From Candidatus Doudnabacteria bacterium (lineage in GTDB: Bacteria; Patescibacteriota; Doudnabacteria; UBA920; O2-02-FULL-48-8), in contig JBDTSL010000004.1 of assembly GCA_039931165.1 (NCBI GenBank), positions 21,028 through 85,027 on the forward strand: a stretch of DNA of 64,000 bases. The letters run 5' to 3'. Positions within the stretch are counted from its first letter, which is position 1, and every line of letters begins with the position of its first letter. Below are positions 6,876 through 18,835 of the stretch, piece after piece. The notes under the pieces are model-generated. The model was given only the letters and a program-made list of their open reading frames with translations, did no database searches and was not told where the DNA came from. The translations under genes were made by a program, and so were the position numbers.

Positions 6876-7553
6876 ATGATCAAATTCGACCAGGTAACAA
6901 AAACATACAACAAAGTCACAGCGATCAAGGATCTGACTTTGGAGATCCATAAAGGTGAGTTCATTTCGCTGGTTGGGCAGTCGGGCGCCGGCAAATCAAC
7001 TTTGATCTCAATGATCATCGGGGAAGAGCGGCCGGACTCGGGCCGGATATTGATCGACGACATAGACGTTTCCCAGATCCGCCGTACCGATATCCCGTAC
7101 CTGCGCCGCAAGATCGGGGTTGTTTTTCAGGATATCAAATTGCTGCCCAGGCGCACCGCCTTTGAAAATGTCGCGTTCGCGCTTGAGGTATCGGGCGAAA
7201 GCCACGCTCATATAAAAAAAGAAGTGCCGAAGATTTTGGAATTGGTCGGACTGGCAGACAAGACCAAAGCTTTCCCAAACGAAATGTCCGGAGGAGAGAA
7301 GCAACGAGTGGCGATCGCCAGAGCTCTTTCACATAATCCCGTTCTGCTCCTGGCTGACGAGCCTACCGGAAATCTGGATTCTATCAACGGTTGGGATATT
7401 ATTCAGTTGCTGCTGAAGATCAATAAAGCCGGAACCACAGTAATTCTGGCCACTCATGCTAAAGACATGGTCAATAGCGTGAAGAAACGCGTCATCACCA
7501 TAGAAAAAGGCCAAATTGTCTATGACCAAGAAAAGGGAAAATATGTATTATAA
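6876..7553 (+). CDS. ftsE: cell division ATP-binding protein FtsE
   Basis: Walker [10 protein letters not shown] and ABC signature LSGGEKQR; 225 aa, followed by ftsX. Confidence 0.9.
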
Positions 7554-7633
7554 GTATAAAGGGACAAATATAAAGTATAATGGGATGTTTGCCCGCCCTG
7601 TTCCCTTAATACTTTATACTTAATACTATTTAT

Positions 7634-8551
7634 ATGAGCTCTACTAACGCCAAAAGACTGATTGGTTCCGGATTCACCAATTTTTTCCGGAACATCTGGA
7701 TCTCGATCGCCGCCACATCCATGGTTGCCATCACTTTGTTCATTATTTCCACTATCCTAGTTTTTTATACGCTCACGGTTTTGGCGGTCCAAAATTCCAC
7801 GGACAAGGTTGGAGTAGTAACTGCTTATTTCAAGGACACTGCCACTGACAAGGAGATCGAAAGCACGCGCGCCGATATCCTGTCTTTGCCCGGAGTAAAG
7901 TCCGTGGATTACACTTCTAAAGCTCATGCCGAGGAATTATTCAAGCAGCGGCACGCGAACGAGCCGGCATTACTTGAAACTCTTACCGAATTCAGCGCTA
8001 CCGACGGCCCGATCCCGGCTTCGGTCGCTGTGCGGGCGGACAACCTTTCGGATTATCCGCATATTTACTCGACGCTGACCTCGGACAGGTACTCCGCCTT
8101 CTTCCAGACTGTCCGGGATAATCAAAAAATCATCGACAAGCTTCACCGTATTATTATTTTTATTACGAGATTTGGATTGATACTTGCCGGTATTTTCATC
8201 ATTGTCACTATCATGGTGACGTTTAATACCATCAGATTGACGATTTACAATAGGCGCGAGGAAGTGGAGATCATGCGCCTTGTGGGTGCCACTAACTGGT
8301 ACATCCGCTGGCCTTTTCTGATTGAAGGCATCATGTACGCGCTGTTCGCGACCACATTCGTCACTATCATGGTTTTGATCTTGCTCTATATGCTTTCCGG
8401 CAAGATCGAACAATTTCTGTCGATCGCGGCCCTGGGAACTACCTTATTCCAGGCAATCTTCTGGAAAATTTTGGCGGTAAACCTGGTCGCCAGCATCGTA
8501 CTGTGCGTCATCGCCTCCAGTATTGCTATGCGCAAGTATCTGCGAATTTAA
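7634..8551 (+). CDS. ftsX: cell division permease FtsX
   Basis: 305 aa with four hydrophobic helices and a large extracytoplasmic loop, downstream of ftsE. Confidence 0.85.
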   Translation: MSSTNAKRLIGSGFTNFFRNIWISIAATSMVAITLFIISTILVFYTLTVLAVQNSTDKVGVVTAYFKDTATDKEIESTRADILSLPGVKSVDYTSKAHAEELFKQRHANEPALLETLTEFSATDGPIPASVAVRADNLSDYPHIYSTLTSDRYSAFFQTVRDNQKIIDKLHRIIIFITRFGLILAGIFIIVTIMVTFNTIRLTIYNRREEVEIMRLVGATNWYIRWPFLIEGIMYALFATTFVTIMVLILLYMLSGKIEQFLSIAALGTTLFQAIFWKILAVNLVASIVLCVIASSIAMRKYLRI

Positions 8552-8638
8552 ATTCGCAGATACTTGTATATAGTATTCAGTATTCAGAGGTGAGTATCAT
8601 CCCTTTATACTTTATACTAAATACTGTATACTTTTTCT

Positions 8639-16474: not shown

Positions 16475-17227
16475 ATGAAAAATAAATTTTGGTTAATCTT
16501 AGCTCTGATTTTACTCGCCGCCGGTGGAGCGTATTTTGTTTCCAAAAATCCTACCGCTCACAAAGTGGCGGATGTGGTCGTAGGTAAAACCCCGCCTCAG
16601 CCACCCGATATAACTTTCAATCCCTCTGTTCCTGATGTCGTGAAGGCGACTTCAGCTTTGCTGAACGTTCCTTTTGTTTCGCAGGCCCCGACCGGGAACT
16701 GGGCTGATCAGAAACAGGAAGACGGCTGTGAAGAAGCTGCGGTGCTCATGTCCTGGCTTTGGATCAATGATAAGTCAATCACTCCGGCCGATGCGGAAAA
16801 GACCATTATCAATATGGCTGACTTTGAAACCGCCCATTACGGAAATTATGCCGATACGGACGCGCAGGATACTGCCAAATTTTTCACCGACTATTACGGC
16901 TATACGAATATTGAAGTGAAAATCAATATCACGATTGATGACATTAAAAACGCTCTGCGGGCAGGCAAGTTGGTCTTAGCTCCGGCCAATGGCACCAAAT
17001 TAGGCAATCCGCATTATAAATCACCTGGCCCAACCACCCATTTTTTGGTCATCAAAGGTTTTGACGATGCCACGGGGTTGTTTACCACAAATGACTCAGG
17101 GACTCAGTATGGCAAAAACTACACTTATAACTATCAAACTTTATTTAACGCATTGGTAAATTATCCCACAGGCAATCATCTGGATCAGACAGGCCGGCCC
17201 AAGGCCATGATCATCGTGACAAAATAA
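16475..17227 (+). CDS. membrane-anchored papain-fold (peptidase C39-like) domain protein
   Basis: N-terminal TM; VPFVSQAPTGNW...DGCEEAAVLMSW (Cys region) and HFLVIKGFDD...FTTNDSG (His / Asp-Asn region) resemble the C39_2 / BtrH-like architecture. Paralogue at 36130-36780. Confidence 0.5.
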   Translation: MKNKFWLILALILLAAGGAYFVSKNPTAHKVADVVVGKTPPQPPDITFNPSVPDVVKATSALLNVPFVSQAPTGNWADQKQEDGCEEAAVLMSWLWINDKSITPADAEKTIINMADFETAHYGNYADTDAQDTAKFFTDYYGYTNIEVKINITIDDIKNALRAGKLVLAPANGTKLGNPHYKSPGPTTHFLVIKGFDDATGLFTTNDSGTQYGKNYTYNYQTLFNALVNYPTGNHLDQTGRPKAMIIVTK

Positions 17228-17338
17228 AAAAAAAGGGGACACAGAGATAAAATAATAAGCGCAAACTTCAGACAGGAGAGTTCGGGAGCAAAGTAACAGA
17301 AGGGCTTATTTCAAGAACGTTAGCTAGTCGCACAATGT

Positions 17339-17389
17339 ACCTTATACGACAACACTTTTTTAAGCCCTATTTGTGTTGTCGTATAAGGT
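17339..17389. repeat. perfect 17-bp inverted repeat (stem) with 17-nt loop in a 300-bp noncoding region
   Basis: accttatacgacaacac / gtgttgtcgtataaggt; no ORF of 60 aa or more on either strand across 17228-17530. Confidence 0.6.
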
Positions 17390-17492
17390 CGCGGAGTTGC
17401 TGCGACAAAATCATATTTATCCCCTAGCCGTTTGTCGCGAAATTTCGCGCGAAATTTATTTGAAATTACTAAATTAATAATCAGAGATTCAA

Positions 17493-17520
17493 AAACCGAC
17501 CAGCAGGGTCGGTTTTGTCT
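17493..17520 (-). terminator. rho-independent terminator for the M23 peptidase gene
   Basis: aaaaaccgaccagcagggtcggtttt hairpin immediately downstream of the minus-strand stop at 17531. Confidence 0.5.
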
Positions 17521-17530
17521 CTCCCCTATT

Positions 17531-18835
17531 TTAGAGGAAGTTTAGGGGATTATAGGTTGCTCCATAAGGCACATCGTATGGACCATATATGTTCGGGTAA
17601 GCGCCGGGTGAAATCCCAAAACCTTCCGCATCAAAGACTGTAAAGTGCAGGTGATACCCGCGATGAGGCCCATAAATTAATCTGGTGGTGTTGCCGGTAT
17701 TACCTTCAAATCCCACAAGGTCGCCTTGTTTGACTGATTGTCCTTTGTTCAAAGTAAAGCTGCTCATATGACCATATAAAGACACGATTGCCCGGCCGCT
17801 GAATTGCCCAACTGTGTGTTTGATCGCAACCCAGTTGCCGTAGGCACCCGTACCTGTGCCTGTCCCGACCACCACCCCGTCACCGGCCGCGTAAATCGGA
17901 CTTCCTGGCGGGGCTGCGATGTCTATGCCGTTATGATAATTATATCCGAGCGCCGTAAATCCCGTATTGCCGTAGCCTTGCGTCAGAGTTCCTTCCATCG
18001 GCCAGCCGAGCAGGCCGTGGATCGAAGGCAGTTTGCGGTTTCCAAGCTTGGCGCTGATAGCCGCGTCAAGATCGAAAATTTCCTTGTTCAACTGATTTTC
18101 CTGTTGCTGGGAATCCGTCAACAGCCTTTGATAGGCTTTTTCCTGCCCCTTGGTTTCGTCCAGGACTTTTTGCCGCGCGACTCTTTGGCCGCTAAGACTG
18201 GCTTTACTGGTGTCCAGCTGGACCAGCAAATTATCCAGACTGGCTTTTTCGGCTTTTAAATCCGCCTGCCGCAGCTGCAGATCAGCTTGCAGTTTTTTGA
18301 TCTTGGTCAATGCTTGTTGGCTTTGATCCTGAATGCTCGAAACATATTGGACCTGGTCCAAGAATTGCTGGAAATTTTCGTTTTCAAGAGCTATTTCCAG
18401 AGGACTCCGCTGGTCCAGATCGTTAATATCCACCATCAGCGTCTTTAAGATCGCTTTCTGTTTGGTTATGTCATTTTCGGTTTTTACTATTTTGTCCGTC
18501 ACATCCGCGATGGCTATGTTGGACGCGTCAATTTTAGCCCGGGTTGCGTCTATTTGCGCAGAGGCTTCCGCAATTTGCAGGTCAAGTATGGCTAAGGTAT
18601 TTTTCAGGGTATTGGCCTGGGATTGTTTTTGCTTGATCTGGCTCTGGTAATCCGTAATTTTCTGGAGTATTGCGTCAAGCTGTTTCTGCTTGTCCAGTTT
18701 CTGCGCTGCGAGCTGATCCGCTGTTTGGCCTAAGACCTTGGGAGTCGCGCTGATAGCAAAAATAACGCCCACAATGAGCAGACCGGAAATTAATTTCTTT
18801 AAATTATTTTTATTTTGTTTCGAAATGATAGACAT
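17531..18835 (-). CDS. M23-family metallopeptidase with N-terminal coiled coil (EnvC-like murein hydrolase/activator)
   Basis: Long Q/L/K-rich coiled coil, then HNGIDIAAPPGSPIYAAGDGVV ... HMS, the M23 (LytM) core. Confidence 0.8.
   Translation of the reverse strand: MSIISKQNKNNLKKLISGLLIVGVIFAISATPKVLGQTADQLAAQKLDKQKQLDAILQKITDYQSQIKQKQSQANTLKNTLAILDLQIAEASAQIDATRAKIDASNIAIADVTDKIVKTENDITKQKAILKTLMVDINDLDQRSPLEIALENENFQQFLDQVQYVSSIQDQSQQALTKIKKLQADLQLRQADLKAEKASLDNLLVQLDTSKASLSGQRVARQKVLDETKGQEKAYQRLLTDSQQQENQLNKEIFDLDAAISAKLGNRKLPSIHGLLGWPMEGTLTQGYGNTGFTALGYNYHNGIDIAAPPGSPIYAAGDGVVVGTGTGTGAYGNWVAIKHTVGQFSGRAIVSLYGHMSSFTLNKGQSVKQGDLVGFEGNTGNTTRLIYGPHRGYHLHFTVFDAEGFGISPGAYPNIYGPYDVPYGATYNPLNFL

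What the first reader, a model, noticed from the sequence alone, without database searches (positions are those of the whole stretch)
17228..17530. 300-bp gene-free convergent intergenic region with a perfect 17-bp stem-loop and a 14-bp CG palindrome: candidate ncRNA
No ORF of 60 aa or more exists on either strand, which is unusual in this otherwise gene-dense window. The region contains ACCTTATACGACAACAC-(17 nt)-GTGTTGTCGTATAAGGT (a perfect 17-bp stem), then GTCGC..GCGAC and CGCGAAATTTCGCG repeated (cgcgaaatttcgcgcgaaattt). It ends with the terminator of the M23 gene. Perfect stems this long are rarely maintained by chance. Candidates are an sRNA (6S-like or other), a structured 3' UTR element, or a remnant recombination site.
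Basis: seen in the sequence. Interest (0 to 1): 0.55.

Follow-up and report, generated by a model that had tools for sequence, protein, structure and literature searches.

The report
Chromosome dimer-resolution (dif) site with hairpins
The perfect hairpin is most likely not an RNA gene: it is part of the site near the replication terminus where this uncultured (CPR) bacterium probably untangles joined daughter chromosomes, a site shared by many related bacteria and copied by their phages.

Summary
The 17-bp perfect hairpin (17339-17355 / 17373-17389) is real and not a chance match, but it does not look like a free-standing RNA gene. Its left arm is one arm of a 28-bp site, ta-GTCGCACAA-TGTACC-TTATACGAC-aa (17325-17352), built like a dif site (11-6-11).

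- **Distribution:** this core lies downstream of the M23 gene in all 14 Doudnabacteria genomes examined.
- **Resemblance to dif:** one arm equals the XerC arm of alpha-proteobacterial dif, and the centre (TRTAnC) is dif-like.
- **Position:** genes converge on the site, and it lies in the 11-19 kb zone where GC skew changes sign.
- **Recombinase:** a XerA-like Xer family is widespread in Patescibacteria and abuts the site in one contig.
- **The hairpins:** Compensatory changes preserve both helices in 9 genomes (18 of 36 pairs), with no strand bias. P2 is absent in 6 of the 14 relatives.

Best reading: a chromosome dimer-resolution site with lineage-specific accessory arms. An ncRNA is not supported but not excluded.

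The parts
17325..17352 (.). 28-bp dif-like core: arm B GTCGCACAA (17327-17335), centre TGTACC (17336-17341), arm A TTATACGAC (17342-17350), plus 2 flanking bases on each side
   Evidence: Single match in the window. The same 9-6-9 site is found in 14 Doudnabacteria genomes, 34 viral contigs and 120 metagenome contigs. Base frequencies over 160 sites give centre T-R-T-A-n-C and R-Y flanks. Arm A equals the XerC arm of Mesorhizobium loti dif.
17339..17355 (.). Hairpin P2, left arm: the last 3 bases of the centre, arm A and 5 flanking bases
   Evidence: Helix 2 of alignment A2 is 91% paired, and 9 of its 17 pairs show changes on both sides.
17373..17389 (.). Hairpin P2, right arm (A'): an inverted extra copy of arm A with its flank
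   Evidence: An extra inverted arm A lies on this side of the core in 14 of 160 sites, against 1 of 160 on the other side.
17390..17409 (.).
   Evidence: Alignment A2. Helix 1 is 95% paired, and 9 of its 19 pairs show changes on both sides. The DNA fold of the + strand recovers it.
17410..17430 (.). P1 loop, with the motif CCCTAGCC (17422-17429) conserved in several relatives
17431..17449 (.).
17492..17516 (.). GC-rich stem-loop with T-runs on both sides: terminator of the M23 gene, usable from both directions
   Evidence: Sequence and folds. An equivalent hairpin follows the M23 stop in all relatives.
17517..17527 (-). GGGGAGAGAC on the - strand, directly after the M23 stop: a G-rich motif pointing toward the core
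   Evidence: TAGGGGAGA is conserved after the stop codon in all Doudnabacteria loci. GGG[GA]AG points toward the site on both sides in 160 sites: 94 against 14 on one side and 54 against 13 on the other.
16475..17227 (+). Flanking gene: C39-like peptidase, convergent with M23
   Evidence: Pfam PF13529.
17531..18835 (-). Flanking gene: EnvC-like M23 peptidase. The core follows this gene in Doudnabacteria, and an M23 gene lies within 5 kb of the site in 51 of 120 metagenome loci
   Evidence: Pfam PF01551.

Best explanation
The region holds the chromosome dimer-resolution site (dif) of this Candidatus Doudnabacteria chromosome.

**Core (inferred mechanism).** The functional core is the 28-bp sequence at 17325-17352: two 11-bp imperfect inverted arms around a 6-bp centre. 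A Xer-family tyrosine recombinase, probably a single XerA-like enzyme, would bind the arms. It would exchange strands across the centre and so convert chromosome dimers into monomers near the replication terminus at cell division.

**Hairpins (shown as sequence pattern, function inferred).** A second pair of arm-like inverted repeats (X and Y, hairpin P1) follows. These three extra arm-like sequences all lie on the arm-A side of the core. I take them to be accessory recombinase-binding or hairpin-forming elements that tune the reaction, for example its directionality, as accessory sites do at cer/psi, Tn3 res or the Tn4430 resolution site.

**What is shown and what is inferred.**
- Shown: the site architecture, its conservation, its position, the covariation of the hairpins, and the existence of a Xer family in the phylum.
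- Inferred: recombinase binding, strand exchange, and any role of the accessory arms.
For: 1. **Architecture.** The site has 9-bp arms and a 6-bp centre, and R-Y flanks extend the arms to 11 bp.
2. **Similarity to known dif.** Arm A read in reverse (GTCGCATAA) is the XerC arm of Mesorhizobium loti dif, AAGTCGCATAA-GATAGA-TTATGGAACTT (6 such arms in the Kono catalogue). The centre consensus TRTAnC, reverse GnTAYA, resembles GATATA and TGTATA.
3. **Conservation.** The site is present once, 0.18-2.4 kb downstream of M23, in all 14 Doudnabacteria genomes that have sequence there, although their M23 proteins are only 50-74% identical.
4. **Terminus position.** In the window, cumulative GC skew rises to 11.3 kb, is flat from 13 to 19 kb, then falls steadily to 64 kb. 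Genes are on the + strand to the left and the - strand to the right. Of 16 metagenome loci with at least 2.5 kb on both sides, 14 show the same polarity, and the two exceptions are phage-like.
5. **Recombinase.** A Xer-like gene starts about 95 nt from the site in L090. Its family has at least 7977 members with E <= 1e-10, is named XerD, XerC or 'tyrosine recombinase/integron integrase' from Saccharibacteria and Patescibacteria, and sits on contigs up to 0.95 Mb. It passes only the NCBIfam XerA cut-off.
6. **Signs of recombination at the site.** L110 has a perfect site and a degenerate one with a 7-nt centre, in direct orientation, flanking 0.95 kb. The cargo between M23 and the next conserved gene varies among Doudnabacteria.
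7. **The hairpin is dispensable.** It is present in 8 of 14 Doudnabacteria genomes, whereas the core is present in all.
Against: - No Xer gene lies in the 64-kb window or in any Doudnabacteria locus held, and whole genomes could not be read. One copy per chromosome, and a position opposite oriC, are therefore untested.
- The skew maximum is at 11.3 kb, 6 kb from the site.
- GC skew and gene orientation are confounded with each other in short loci.
- Arm B (TTGTGCGAC) matches no XerD arm in a catalogue of 641 genomes.
- The strong covariation of P1 and P2, including GC-rich extensions outside the arm-like parts, is not what simple protein-binding sites predict. It fits a folded single strand better.
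- Nothing here shows binding or recombination.
Confidence: 0.72

Rival explanations
1. A structured non-coding RNA, either an sRNA or a 3'-UTR element, is transcribed across the two hairpins P1 and P2. The resemblance of their arms to a recombination site would be secondary.
For: Two helices of 19 and 17 bp are kept by compensatory changes in 9 genomes. In total 93.5% of cells are paired, 18 of 36 pairs change on both sides, and the covariation score is 0.459 against 0.183 in shuffles (0 of 500 shuffles reach it). Slid controls pair far less, 22-45%. Fold z-scores are -5 to -6. A terminator usable in both directions lies at 17492-17516. Model R1 finds the module in other lineages: L069, L127, L132, L067 and L110 at 43-64 bits.
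Against: There is no Rfam match. I found no promoter conserved among the relatives, only one weak promoter-like match in the window. Mismatches are symmetric between strands, 12 G-T against 7 A-C, as expected for DNA inverted repeats. The helices are built from copies of the recombinase arms. P2 is absent in 6 of 14 Doudnabacteria genomes and in about 90% of all sites, while the core is universal. An extra arm occurs on one side of the core only.
Confidence: 0.13
2. The site is only an attachment site or scar for mobile elements (phages or small islands that bring or borrow an integrase) and has no role in chromosome segregation.
For: The same site occurs in 34 viral contigs, usually just upstream of or between the terminase small and large subunit genes. 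Tyrosine recombinase genes lie within 100-250 nt of the site in L060, L083, L090 and L138. Cargo next to the site varies. L110 has direct repeats flanking a small insert.
Against: An intergenic 28-bp target kept unchanged across genomes of 25-68% G+C, and across 14 species whose flanking protein has diverged to 50% identity, needs a host function. The site sits where genes and skew converge. No held locus carries both terminase and host marker genes. Mobile elements that use dif are a known consequence of dif, not an alternative to it.
Confidence: 0.08
3. The hairpin is a transcription terminator or a palindromic operator for the flanking cell-wall genes.
For: It lies between two convergent genes, and palindromes are common operators.
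Against: The stem is only 41% G+C, the loop is 17 nt, and no T-run follows it. A canonical terminator already exists at 17492-17516. The site lies at the 3' ends of both genes. The same sequence occurs in unrelated gene contexts and in phages.
Confidence: 0.03

Closest known systems
XerCD/dif of Proteobacteria (28 bp, 11-6-11, at the terminus)
   Same: Length and layout match, and the inner AA-N6-TT positions are shared. Arm A is identical to the XerC arm of alpha-proteobacterial dif sites such as Mesorhizobium loti. The centre is TA-rich, one arm is more conserved than the other, and the site lies where genes and GC skew converge.
   Different: The second arm (TTGTGCGAC) is not a XerD arm. 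It looks like a second, slightly different XerC-type arm and is found in none of the 641 catalogued dif sites. No XerC/XerD pair has been identified.
Single-recombinase Xer systems: archaeal XerA/dif, XerH/difH, XerS/difSL (review PMC5357621)
   Same: The arms are nearly symmetric. The Patescibacteria recombinase family found next to the site in L090 passes only the NCBIfam XerA model, at 230-240 bits against a cut-off of 220. In L090 the gene and the site form a module, as in some archaea and as with xerS/xerH.
   Different: These are bacteria, not archaea. In the window and in most loci the recombinase gene is not adjacent. FtsK dependence is unknown.
Resolution sites with accessory sequences: cer/psi (about 180 bp next to the XerC arm), Tn3 res subsites, Tn4430 IRS with extra TnpI motifs (the transposon sites are from my own knowledge)
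   Same: The extra arm-like motifs (A', Y, X) lie within about 100 bp, on one side of the core only, and that side is the XerC-like arm side.
   Different: At cer and psi the accessory proteins are ArgR, ArcA and PepA, not recombinase arms. Here the extra motifs form covarying inverted repeats, which those systems do not require. Only about 9% of sites have them.
Folded single-strand recombination sites: CTX-phi attP (two inverted dif-like sites that fold, PMC5357621) and integron attC
   Same: Inverted dif-arm-like repeats a few tens of nt apart can fold into long imperfect hairpins. One arm (Y) carries a conserved extra base. Covariation indicates that pairing is maintained.
   Different: The element sits in a chromosome near the terminus, not in a single-stranded phage or a gene cassette. 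The perfect stem covers only one arm, so the hairpin does not rebuild a complete two-arm site.
IMEX (mobile elements integrating at dif with host Xer)
   Same: Phage contigs carry the same site, and L110 shows a perfect and a degenerate site, the latter with a longer centre, in direct orientation around a small insert.
   Different: By my recollection, the described IMEX are filamentous phages and genomic islands. Here the carriers are tailed phages with the site next to the terminase genes. Integration was not observed.

Membership tests
Xer/dif chromosome dimer-resolution site | Two imperfect inverted arms of about 11 bp separated by a 6-bp central region | tested here: met
   GTCGCACAA-N6-TTATRCGAC with R-Y flanks. 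Base frequencies over 160 sites, flank covariation, window copy at 17325-17352.
Xer/dif chromosome dimer-resolution site | Sequence resemblance to characterised dif: XerC-type arm and TA-rich centre | tested here: met
   Arm A read in reverse, GTCGCATAA, equals the XerC arm of M. loti dif. The centre TRTAnC compares with GATAGA and TGTATA.
Xer/dif chromosome dimer-resolution site | Canonical XerD arm (TTATGTnAAnT-like) on the other side | tested here: not met
   Arm B is TTGTGCGAC, and no GTGCGAC arm occurs in the Kono catalogue. This argues against a classical XerC+XerD site and for a single-recombinase variant.
Xer/dif chromosome dimer-resolution site | Location in the replication terminus region, at the GC-skew shift point | tested here: met
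   The window's cumulative skew maximum is at 11.3 kb, with a plateau to 19 kb and the site at 17.3 kb. Genes converge on it. Of 16 other loci, 14 show the same polarity. The position relative to oriC could not be tested.
Xer/dif chromosome dimer-resolution site | Single copy per chromosome | tested here: inconclusive
Xer/dif chromosome dimer-resolution site | Cognate Xer recombinase encoded by the same genome | tested here: inconclusive
   None is found in the window or the Doudnabacteria loci. A large XerA-like family exists in Patescibacteria and abuts the site in L090.
Xer/dif chromosome dimer-resolution site | Recombinase binding and strand exchange at the site | not testable with these tools
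   This needs biochemistry or genetics.
Known non-coding RNA family (Rfam) | Match to a curated covariance model | tested here: not met
   Only tRNA-Gln at 36.8 kb reaches the gathering threshold. In 17100-17650 all matches have E > 1 and are spurious miRNA-type hairpin matches. No tRNA or tmRNA lies there.
Novel structured RNA gene | Secondary structure conserved through compensatory changes | tested here: met
   P1 and P2: 18 of 36 pairs change on both sides, and 0 of 500 shuffles reach the observed score.
Novel structured RNA gene | Strand-specific signals: promoter, terminator, G-U but not A-C pairs | tested here: not met
   12 G-T against 7 A-C. There is only one weak promoter-like match, which I did not find conserved.
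Novel structured RNA gene | A transcript with defined ends | not testable with these tools
   No expression data are available.
Intrinsic terminator | G+C-rich stem, short loop, and a following U-tract | tested here: not met
   The P2 stem has 7 G-C pairs of 17, a 17-nt loop and no T-run after it. The real terminator is at 17492-17516.
Resolution site with accessory recombinase-binding arms (res/IRS/cer-like) | Extra arm-like motifs clustered on one side of the crossover core | tested here: met
   A', Y and X all lie on the arm-A side. An extra inverted arm A occurs in 14 of 160 sites, against 1 of 160 on the arm-B side. Binding was not tested.
IMEX-type integrated element | Cargo flanked by a dif and a degenerate dif-like site in direct orientation | tested here: not met
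   The window has a single site and no cargo between M23 and the C39 gene. The pattern is seen in L110 only.

The most novel reading that the evidence does not exclude
Patescibacteria (CPR) would use a previously undescribed dif variant served by a single XerA-like recombinase. In some lineages the site would carry built-in hairpin-forming copies of its own arms, acting as folded or extruded accessory elements and possibly replacing FtsK control. A broad group of tailed CPR phages would carry the same site beside their terminase genes and use the host enzyme for integration or for resolving their own dimers. That would make them a tailed-phage counterpart of the filamentous IMEX phages.
Probability: 0.25. 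Interest if true: 0.75.

Novelty: new variant of a known kind. Interest (0 to 1): 0.58.

Why it matters
- **A terminus marker for CPR genomes.** If correct, this gives the first sequence definition of the chromosome dimer-resolution site for a very large, uncultured bacterial radiation. It would be a 28-bp marker that locates the replication terminus in fragmented CPR genomes. That helps genome finishing, growth-rate estimates from coverage, and checks of genome binning.
- **A simpler Xer system.** It points to a single XerA-like recombinase acting on a nearly symmetric site in bacteria with minimal genomes. This bears on how a simple cell-division apparatus handles chromosome dimers.
- **Two unexpected features.** Neither is expected from textbook dif. 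One is the covarying hairpins made of extra copies of the recombinase arms. The other is the same site in tailed phages next to the packaging genes. Both can be tested directly.

Tried and rejected
- **Known RNA families.** Rfam at gathering and permissive thresholds, and ARAGORN, found nothing in the region.
- **Promoter and terminator scan.** It gave one weak promoter-like match inside the P1 loop, which I did not find conserved, and a 5-bp stem inside the CG palindrome.
- **RNase P, SRP, 6S or tmRNA.** I considered these from motif resemblances by eye and dropped them, because Rfam gives no match and the element is absent in close relatives.
- **A loop-to-flank pseudoknot.** AGGGCTTA at 17300-17307 pairs with TAAGCCCT at 17361-17368, 8 bp in the window. 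Relatives show only 4-6 bp, so I did not pursue it.
- **A recombinase gene in the window.** Ten ORFs of about 300 aa have unrelated Pfam families. phmmer with E. coli XerC/XerD and with the CPR Xer family finds none.
- **Contig ends near the site as a sign of population rearrangement.** 14 of 118 metagenome sites lie within 150 nt of a locus end, which is not clearly above expectation.
- **KOPS-like skew of GGGGAG.** It runs 15 toward and 2 away in the window, but this is confounded with coding-strand purine bias, so it is only noted.
- **Secondary sites.** 4 loci have them, against 4 hits in shuffled sequence. Only L110 is convincing.
- **Integrated prophage junctions.** No locus holds both terminase and host marker genes.
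- **Cultured phages and plasmids.** BLAST with a 30-nt consensus site gave only borderline matches.
- **Protein search with the L090 fragment alone.** It gave 2 hits; the alignment query was needed.
- **Strand assignment from wobble pairs.** Early single examples favoured the - strand, but the full count does not.

Full report
**1. The observation**

The region 17228-17530 lies between the stop codons of two convergent genes. One is a C39-like peptidase (16475-17227, + strand) and the other an M23 peptidase (17531-18835, - strand). It contains no ORF of 60 aa or more.

- The hairpin is exactly as described: ACCTTATACGACAACAC at 17339-17355, a 17-nt loop, and GTGTTGTCGTATAAGGT at 17373-17389.
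- It is the only perfect inverted repeat of this length in the window, and its arm occurs nowhere else even with three mismatches.
- By my arithmetic, about 7e-4 such repeats are expected by chance in 64 kb.
- Alone it folds at -16.9 kcal/mol as DNA, z = -9.35. The whole region gives z = -6.1 and -5.1 on the two strands.
- The GTCGC..GCGAC repeat (17388-17406), the CGCGAAATTTCGCG palindrome (17436-17449) and the M23 terminator (17492-17516) are all there.
- The gap is not exceptional in size: my crude map shows six other gaps of 284 nt or more.

**2. Tests of the RNA reading**

Rfam finds only a tRNA-Gln elsewhere in the window. Within 17100-17650 it finds nothing better than E = 1.1, and those are spurious matches of any long hairpin to miRNA precursor models. 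ARAGORN finds nothing there. The promoter scan gives one weak match.

**3. Related genomes**

The M23 protein identifies the organism as Candidatus Doudnabacteria, a CPR/Patescibacteria lineage. I collected the region downstream of M23 from 14 distinct genomes: the window, L002, L003, L004, L005, L006, L008, L012, L015, L016, L017, L174, L175 and L176. Their M23 proteins are 50-74% identical to the window's.

- All 14 carry one copy of GTCGCACA(A/T)-N6-TTnTnCGnC, 0.18-2.4 kb downstream of M23.
- One arm (GTCGCACAA, arm B) is nearly invariant. The other (TTATRCGAC, arm A) varies more.
- The inverted extra copy that creates the hairpin is present in 8 of the 14 genomes and absent in 6: L004, L005, L006, L008, L015 and L017.
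- The conserved unit is therefore the 24-bp core, not the hairpin.

**4. How widespread the core is**

Their G+C ranges from 0.25 to 0.68.

Over 160 non-identical sites:
- The unconstrained centre has the consensus T-R-T-A-n-C.
- The two bases outside each arm are R-Y.
- Those outer bases are more often complementary within a site than expected from their frequencies: at offset 2, 94 Watson-Crick pairs against 63 expected.

The site is thus 11-6-11 = 28 bp, the dif format (Kono et al. 2011; Castillo et al. 2017).

- Arm A read in reverse (GTCGCATAA) is identical to the XerC arm of Mesorhizobium loti dif, AAGTCGCATAA-GATAGA-TTATGGAACTT (Carnoy and Roten 2009). It occurs six times in the Kono catalogue.
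- Arm B occurs in none of the 641 catalogued sites.
- Both arms are XerC-like, which suggests a single recombinase.

**5. Position**

In the window the cumulative G-C count climbs to a maximum at 11.3 kb. It stays on a plateau from 13 to 19 kb and then falls steadily to 64 kb. Genes are almost all on the + strand up to 11.8 kb and mostly on the - strand beyond 17.5 kb. This is the signature of a replication terminus, and the site lies inside the transition zone.

- Among metagenome loci with at least 2.5 kb on both sides, 14 of 16 have higher skew on the left than on the right, with genes converging on the site. The two exceptions look like phage contigs.
- An EnvC-like M23 peptidase gene lies within 5 kb of the site in 51 of 120 loci.
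- An FtsQ-type POTRA gene lies near the site in 30 of 120 loci, in most of them with its 3' end abutting the site. FemAB and DegT-like genes also recur.

**6. The recombinase**

No tyrosine recombinase is encoded in the window or in the Doudnabacteria loci. Four metagenome loci have one within 100-250 nt of the site.

- The L090 gene fragment has a Xer-type N-terminal domain. Its family is very large, with at least 7977 proteins at E <= 1e-10.
- Family members are about 304-321 aa and sit on contigs up to 0.95 Mb. Their sources name them XerD, XerC or 'site-specific tyrosine recombinase/integron integrase', from Saccharibacteria, Saccharimonadales and Patescibacteria.
- Four members score about 250 bits to both the XerC and XerD models, below the cut-offs of those models. 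They pass only the archaeal XerA model, at 230-240 bits against 220.
- This fits a single-recombinase system acting on a nearly symmetric site.
- I could not show that the window's own genome encodes it.

**7. The hairpins**

Read on the M23 strand, the Doudnabacteria module has this order:
1. the stop codon;
2. AUAGGGGAGA;
3. the terminator hairpin;
4. an AT-rich stretch;
5. X, a roughly 20-40-nt loop (21 nt in the window), often with GGCTAGGGRA, and Y;
6. A', a loop, and A;
7. the centre, then arm B.

- X pairs with Y to form P1, at window 17431-17449 with 17390-17409.
- Each of X, Y and A' contains an arm-like sequence: TTTYRCGAC, GYARCAA with one extra base, and TTATRCGAC.
- On an alignment of nine genomes (A2), 93.5% of cells form standard pairs. 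Of 36 pairs, 18 have changes on both sides (51 cells). The covariation score is 0.459 against 0.183 +/- 0.021 in shuffles (0 of 500), and slid controls pair at 22-45%.
- The covariation includes the GC-rich extensions outside the arm-like parts.
- Mismatches show no strand preference: 12 G-T against 7 A-C.
- A covariance model of the module (R1) finds it in other lineages: L069 at 64 bits, L127 at 62, L132 at 52, L067 at 49 and L110 at 43.
- Over all sites, an extra inverted arm A lies within 110 nt on the arm-A side in 14 of 160, against 1 of 160 on the arm-B side and about 2 expected by chance.

Pairing, or concerted evolution of the repeats, is therefore maintained, but as an optional, one-sided addition to the core.

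**8. Phages and mobile elements**

- In the viral contigs the site usually lies just upstream of, or between, genes that PHROGs identifies as terminase small and large subunits, in one case with an HNH endonuclease nearby.
- Only one viral locus has an integrase, and it is 3.4 kb away.
- No held locus joins terminase genes to host markers, so integration is not shown.
- L110 carries a perfect site and a degenerate one with a 7-nt centre and its own hairpin module, in direct orientation, 962 bp apart around one small ORF. That is the arrangement expected for an element integrated by Xer.
- In Doudnabacteria the cargo between M23 and the next conserved gene differs from genome to genome.

**9. 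A polar G-rich motif**

GGG[GA]AG points toward the site on both sides: 94 against 14 on the arm-B side, with a sharp peak 20-40 nt away, and 54 against 13 on the arm-A side, with a peak at 140-220 nt. In the window the arm-A-side copy is the GGGGAGAGAC that directly follows the M23 stop (17517-17527, - strand).

The orientation recalls the FtsK-orienting sequences that converge on dif. Equally, the two copies could pair with each other. The window-wide skew of GGGGAG, 15 against 2, is confounded by coding-strand bias. I leave this unexplained.

**10. Conclusion**

- The core at 17325-17352 is best explained as a dif-type site for a Xer recombinase, confidence about 0.7.
Their role is unknown. 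I favour accessory binding or folding that controls the reaction, with low confidence.
- A structured RNA remains possible, at about 0.13, because of the covariation. It lacks any strand-specific support.
- The site differs from every catalogued dif in its second arm, in its likely single XerA-like partner, in the optional hairpin module, and in being carried by tailed phages. I therefore rate it a new variant of a known kind.

Noticed in passing
L110:1009-1032 and L110:1971-1995: A perfect site and a degenerate one (7-nt centre, arm TTATGCAAC, followed by its own two-hairpin module) lie in direct orientation 962 bp apart around one small ORF. This looks like a small element integrated by Xer recombination.
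   Followed up: partly
L018-L051 (viral contigs), e.g. L028:12557-12580, L021:7552-7575, L044:4136-4159: The same 24-bp site sits just upstream of, or between, the terminase small and large subunit genes of tailed phages. Only one locus has an integrase, 3.4 kb away. Neither integration nor a role in packaging was shown.
   Followed up: partly
window 17517-17527 (- strand) and the flanks of 160 sites in L002-L176: A G-rich motif, GGG[GA]AG(T), points toward the site from both sides at preferred distances: 20-40 nt from arm B and 140-220 nt from arm A. It could be an FtsK-orienting type of signal or the two halves of a long-range helix.
   Followed up: partly
L090:3159-3182 and L090:3275-3724: A Xer-type gene starts about 95 nt from the site. 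Its family is very large in Patescibacteria and passes only the NCBIfam archaeal XerA cut-off, not the XerC or XerD cut-offs.
   Followed up: partly
L176:3868-5652, L012:11745-12077, L015:6743-7030, L002:1700-2420: The content between M23 and the C39/aminotransferase genes varies among Doudnabacteria: nothing, a 95-110 aa ORF, an ABC transporter, or other ORFs. In L176 the whole module, including AATAGGGGATAC and a terminator, follows the ABC transporter instead of M23.
   Followed up: partly
window 6876-8551 and 17531-18835; metagenome loci such as L063 and L078: Cell-division genes cluster around the site. FtsE/FtsX-like genes and the EnvC-like M23 gene are in the window. In other lineages M23 and ftsQ converge on the site, with femAB and degT-like genes behind ftsQ.
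   Followed up: no
L013 and L014, beyond 5.8 kb upstream of M23: Two contigs have an identical M23 region but different left flanks: an adh_short/GSDH block in one and ATP synthase genes in the other. This is either a rearrangement between strains or an assembly chimera.
   Followed up: no
window 17300-17307 and 17361-17368: AGGGCTTA upstream of the core is complementary to TAAGCCCT in the P2 loop (8 bp). L012 has a 6-bp equivalent, and other genomes have only 4 bp.
   Followed up: partly
L001:3779 (= window about 17468): The only other contig of this organism, from a Logan assembly, ends inside the intergenic region about 118 nt past the core. The cause is unknown.
   Followed up: no
window 8526-8573: A 24-nt-arm palindrome (88% complementary, no spacer) lies at the 3' end of the FtsX-like gene.
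   Followed up: no
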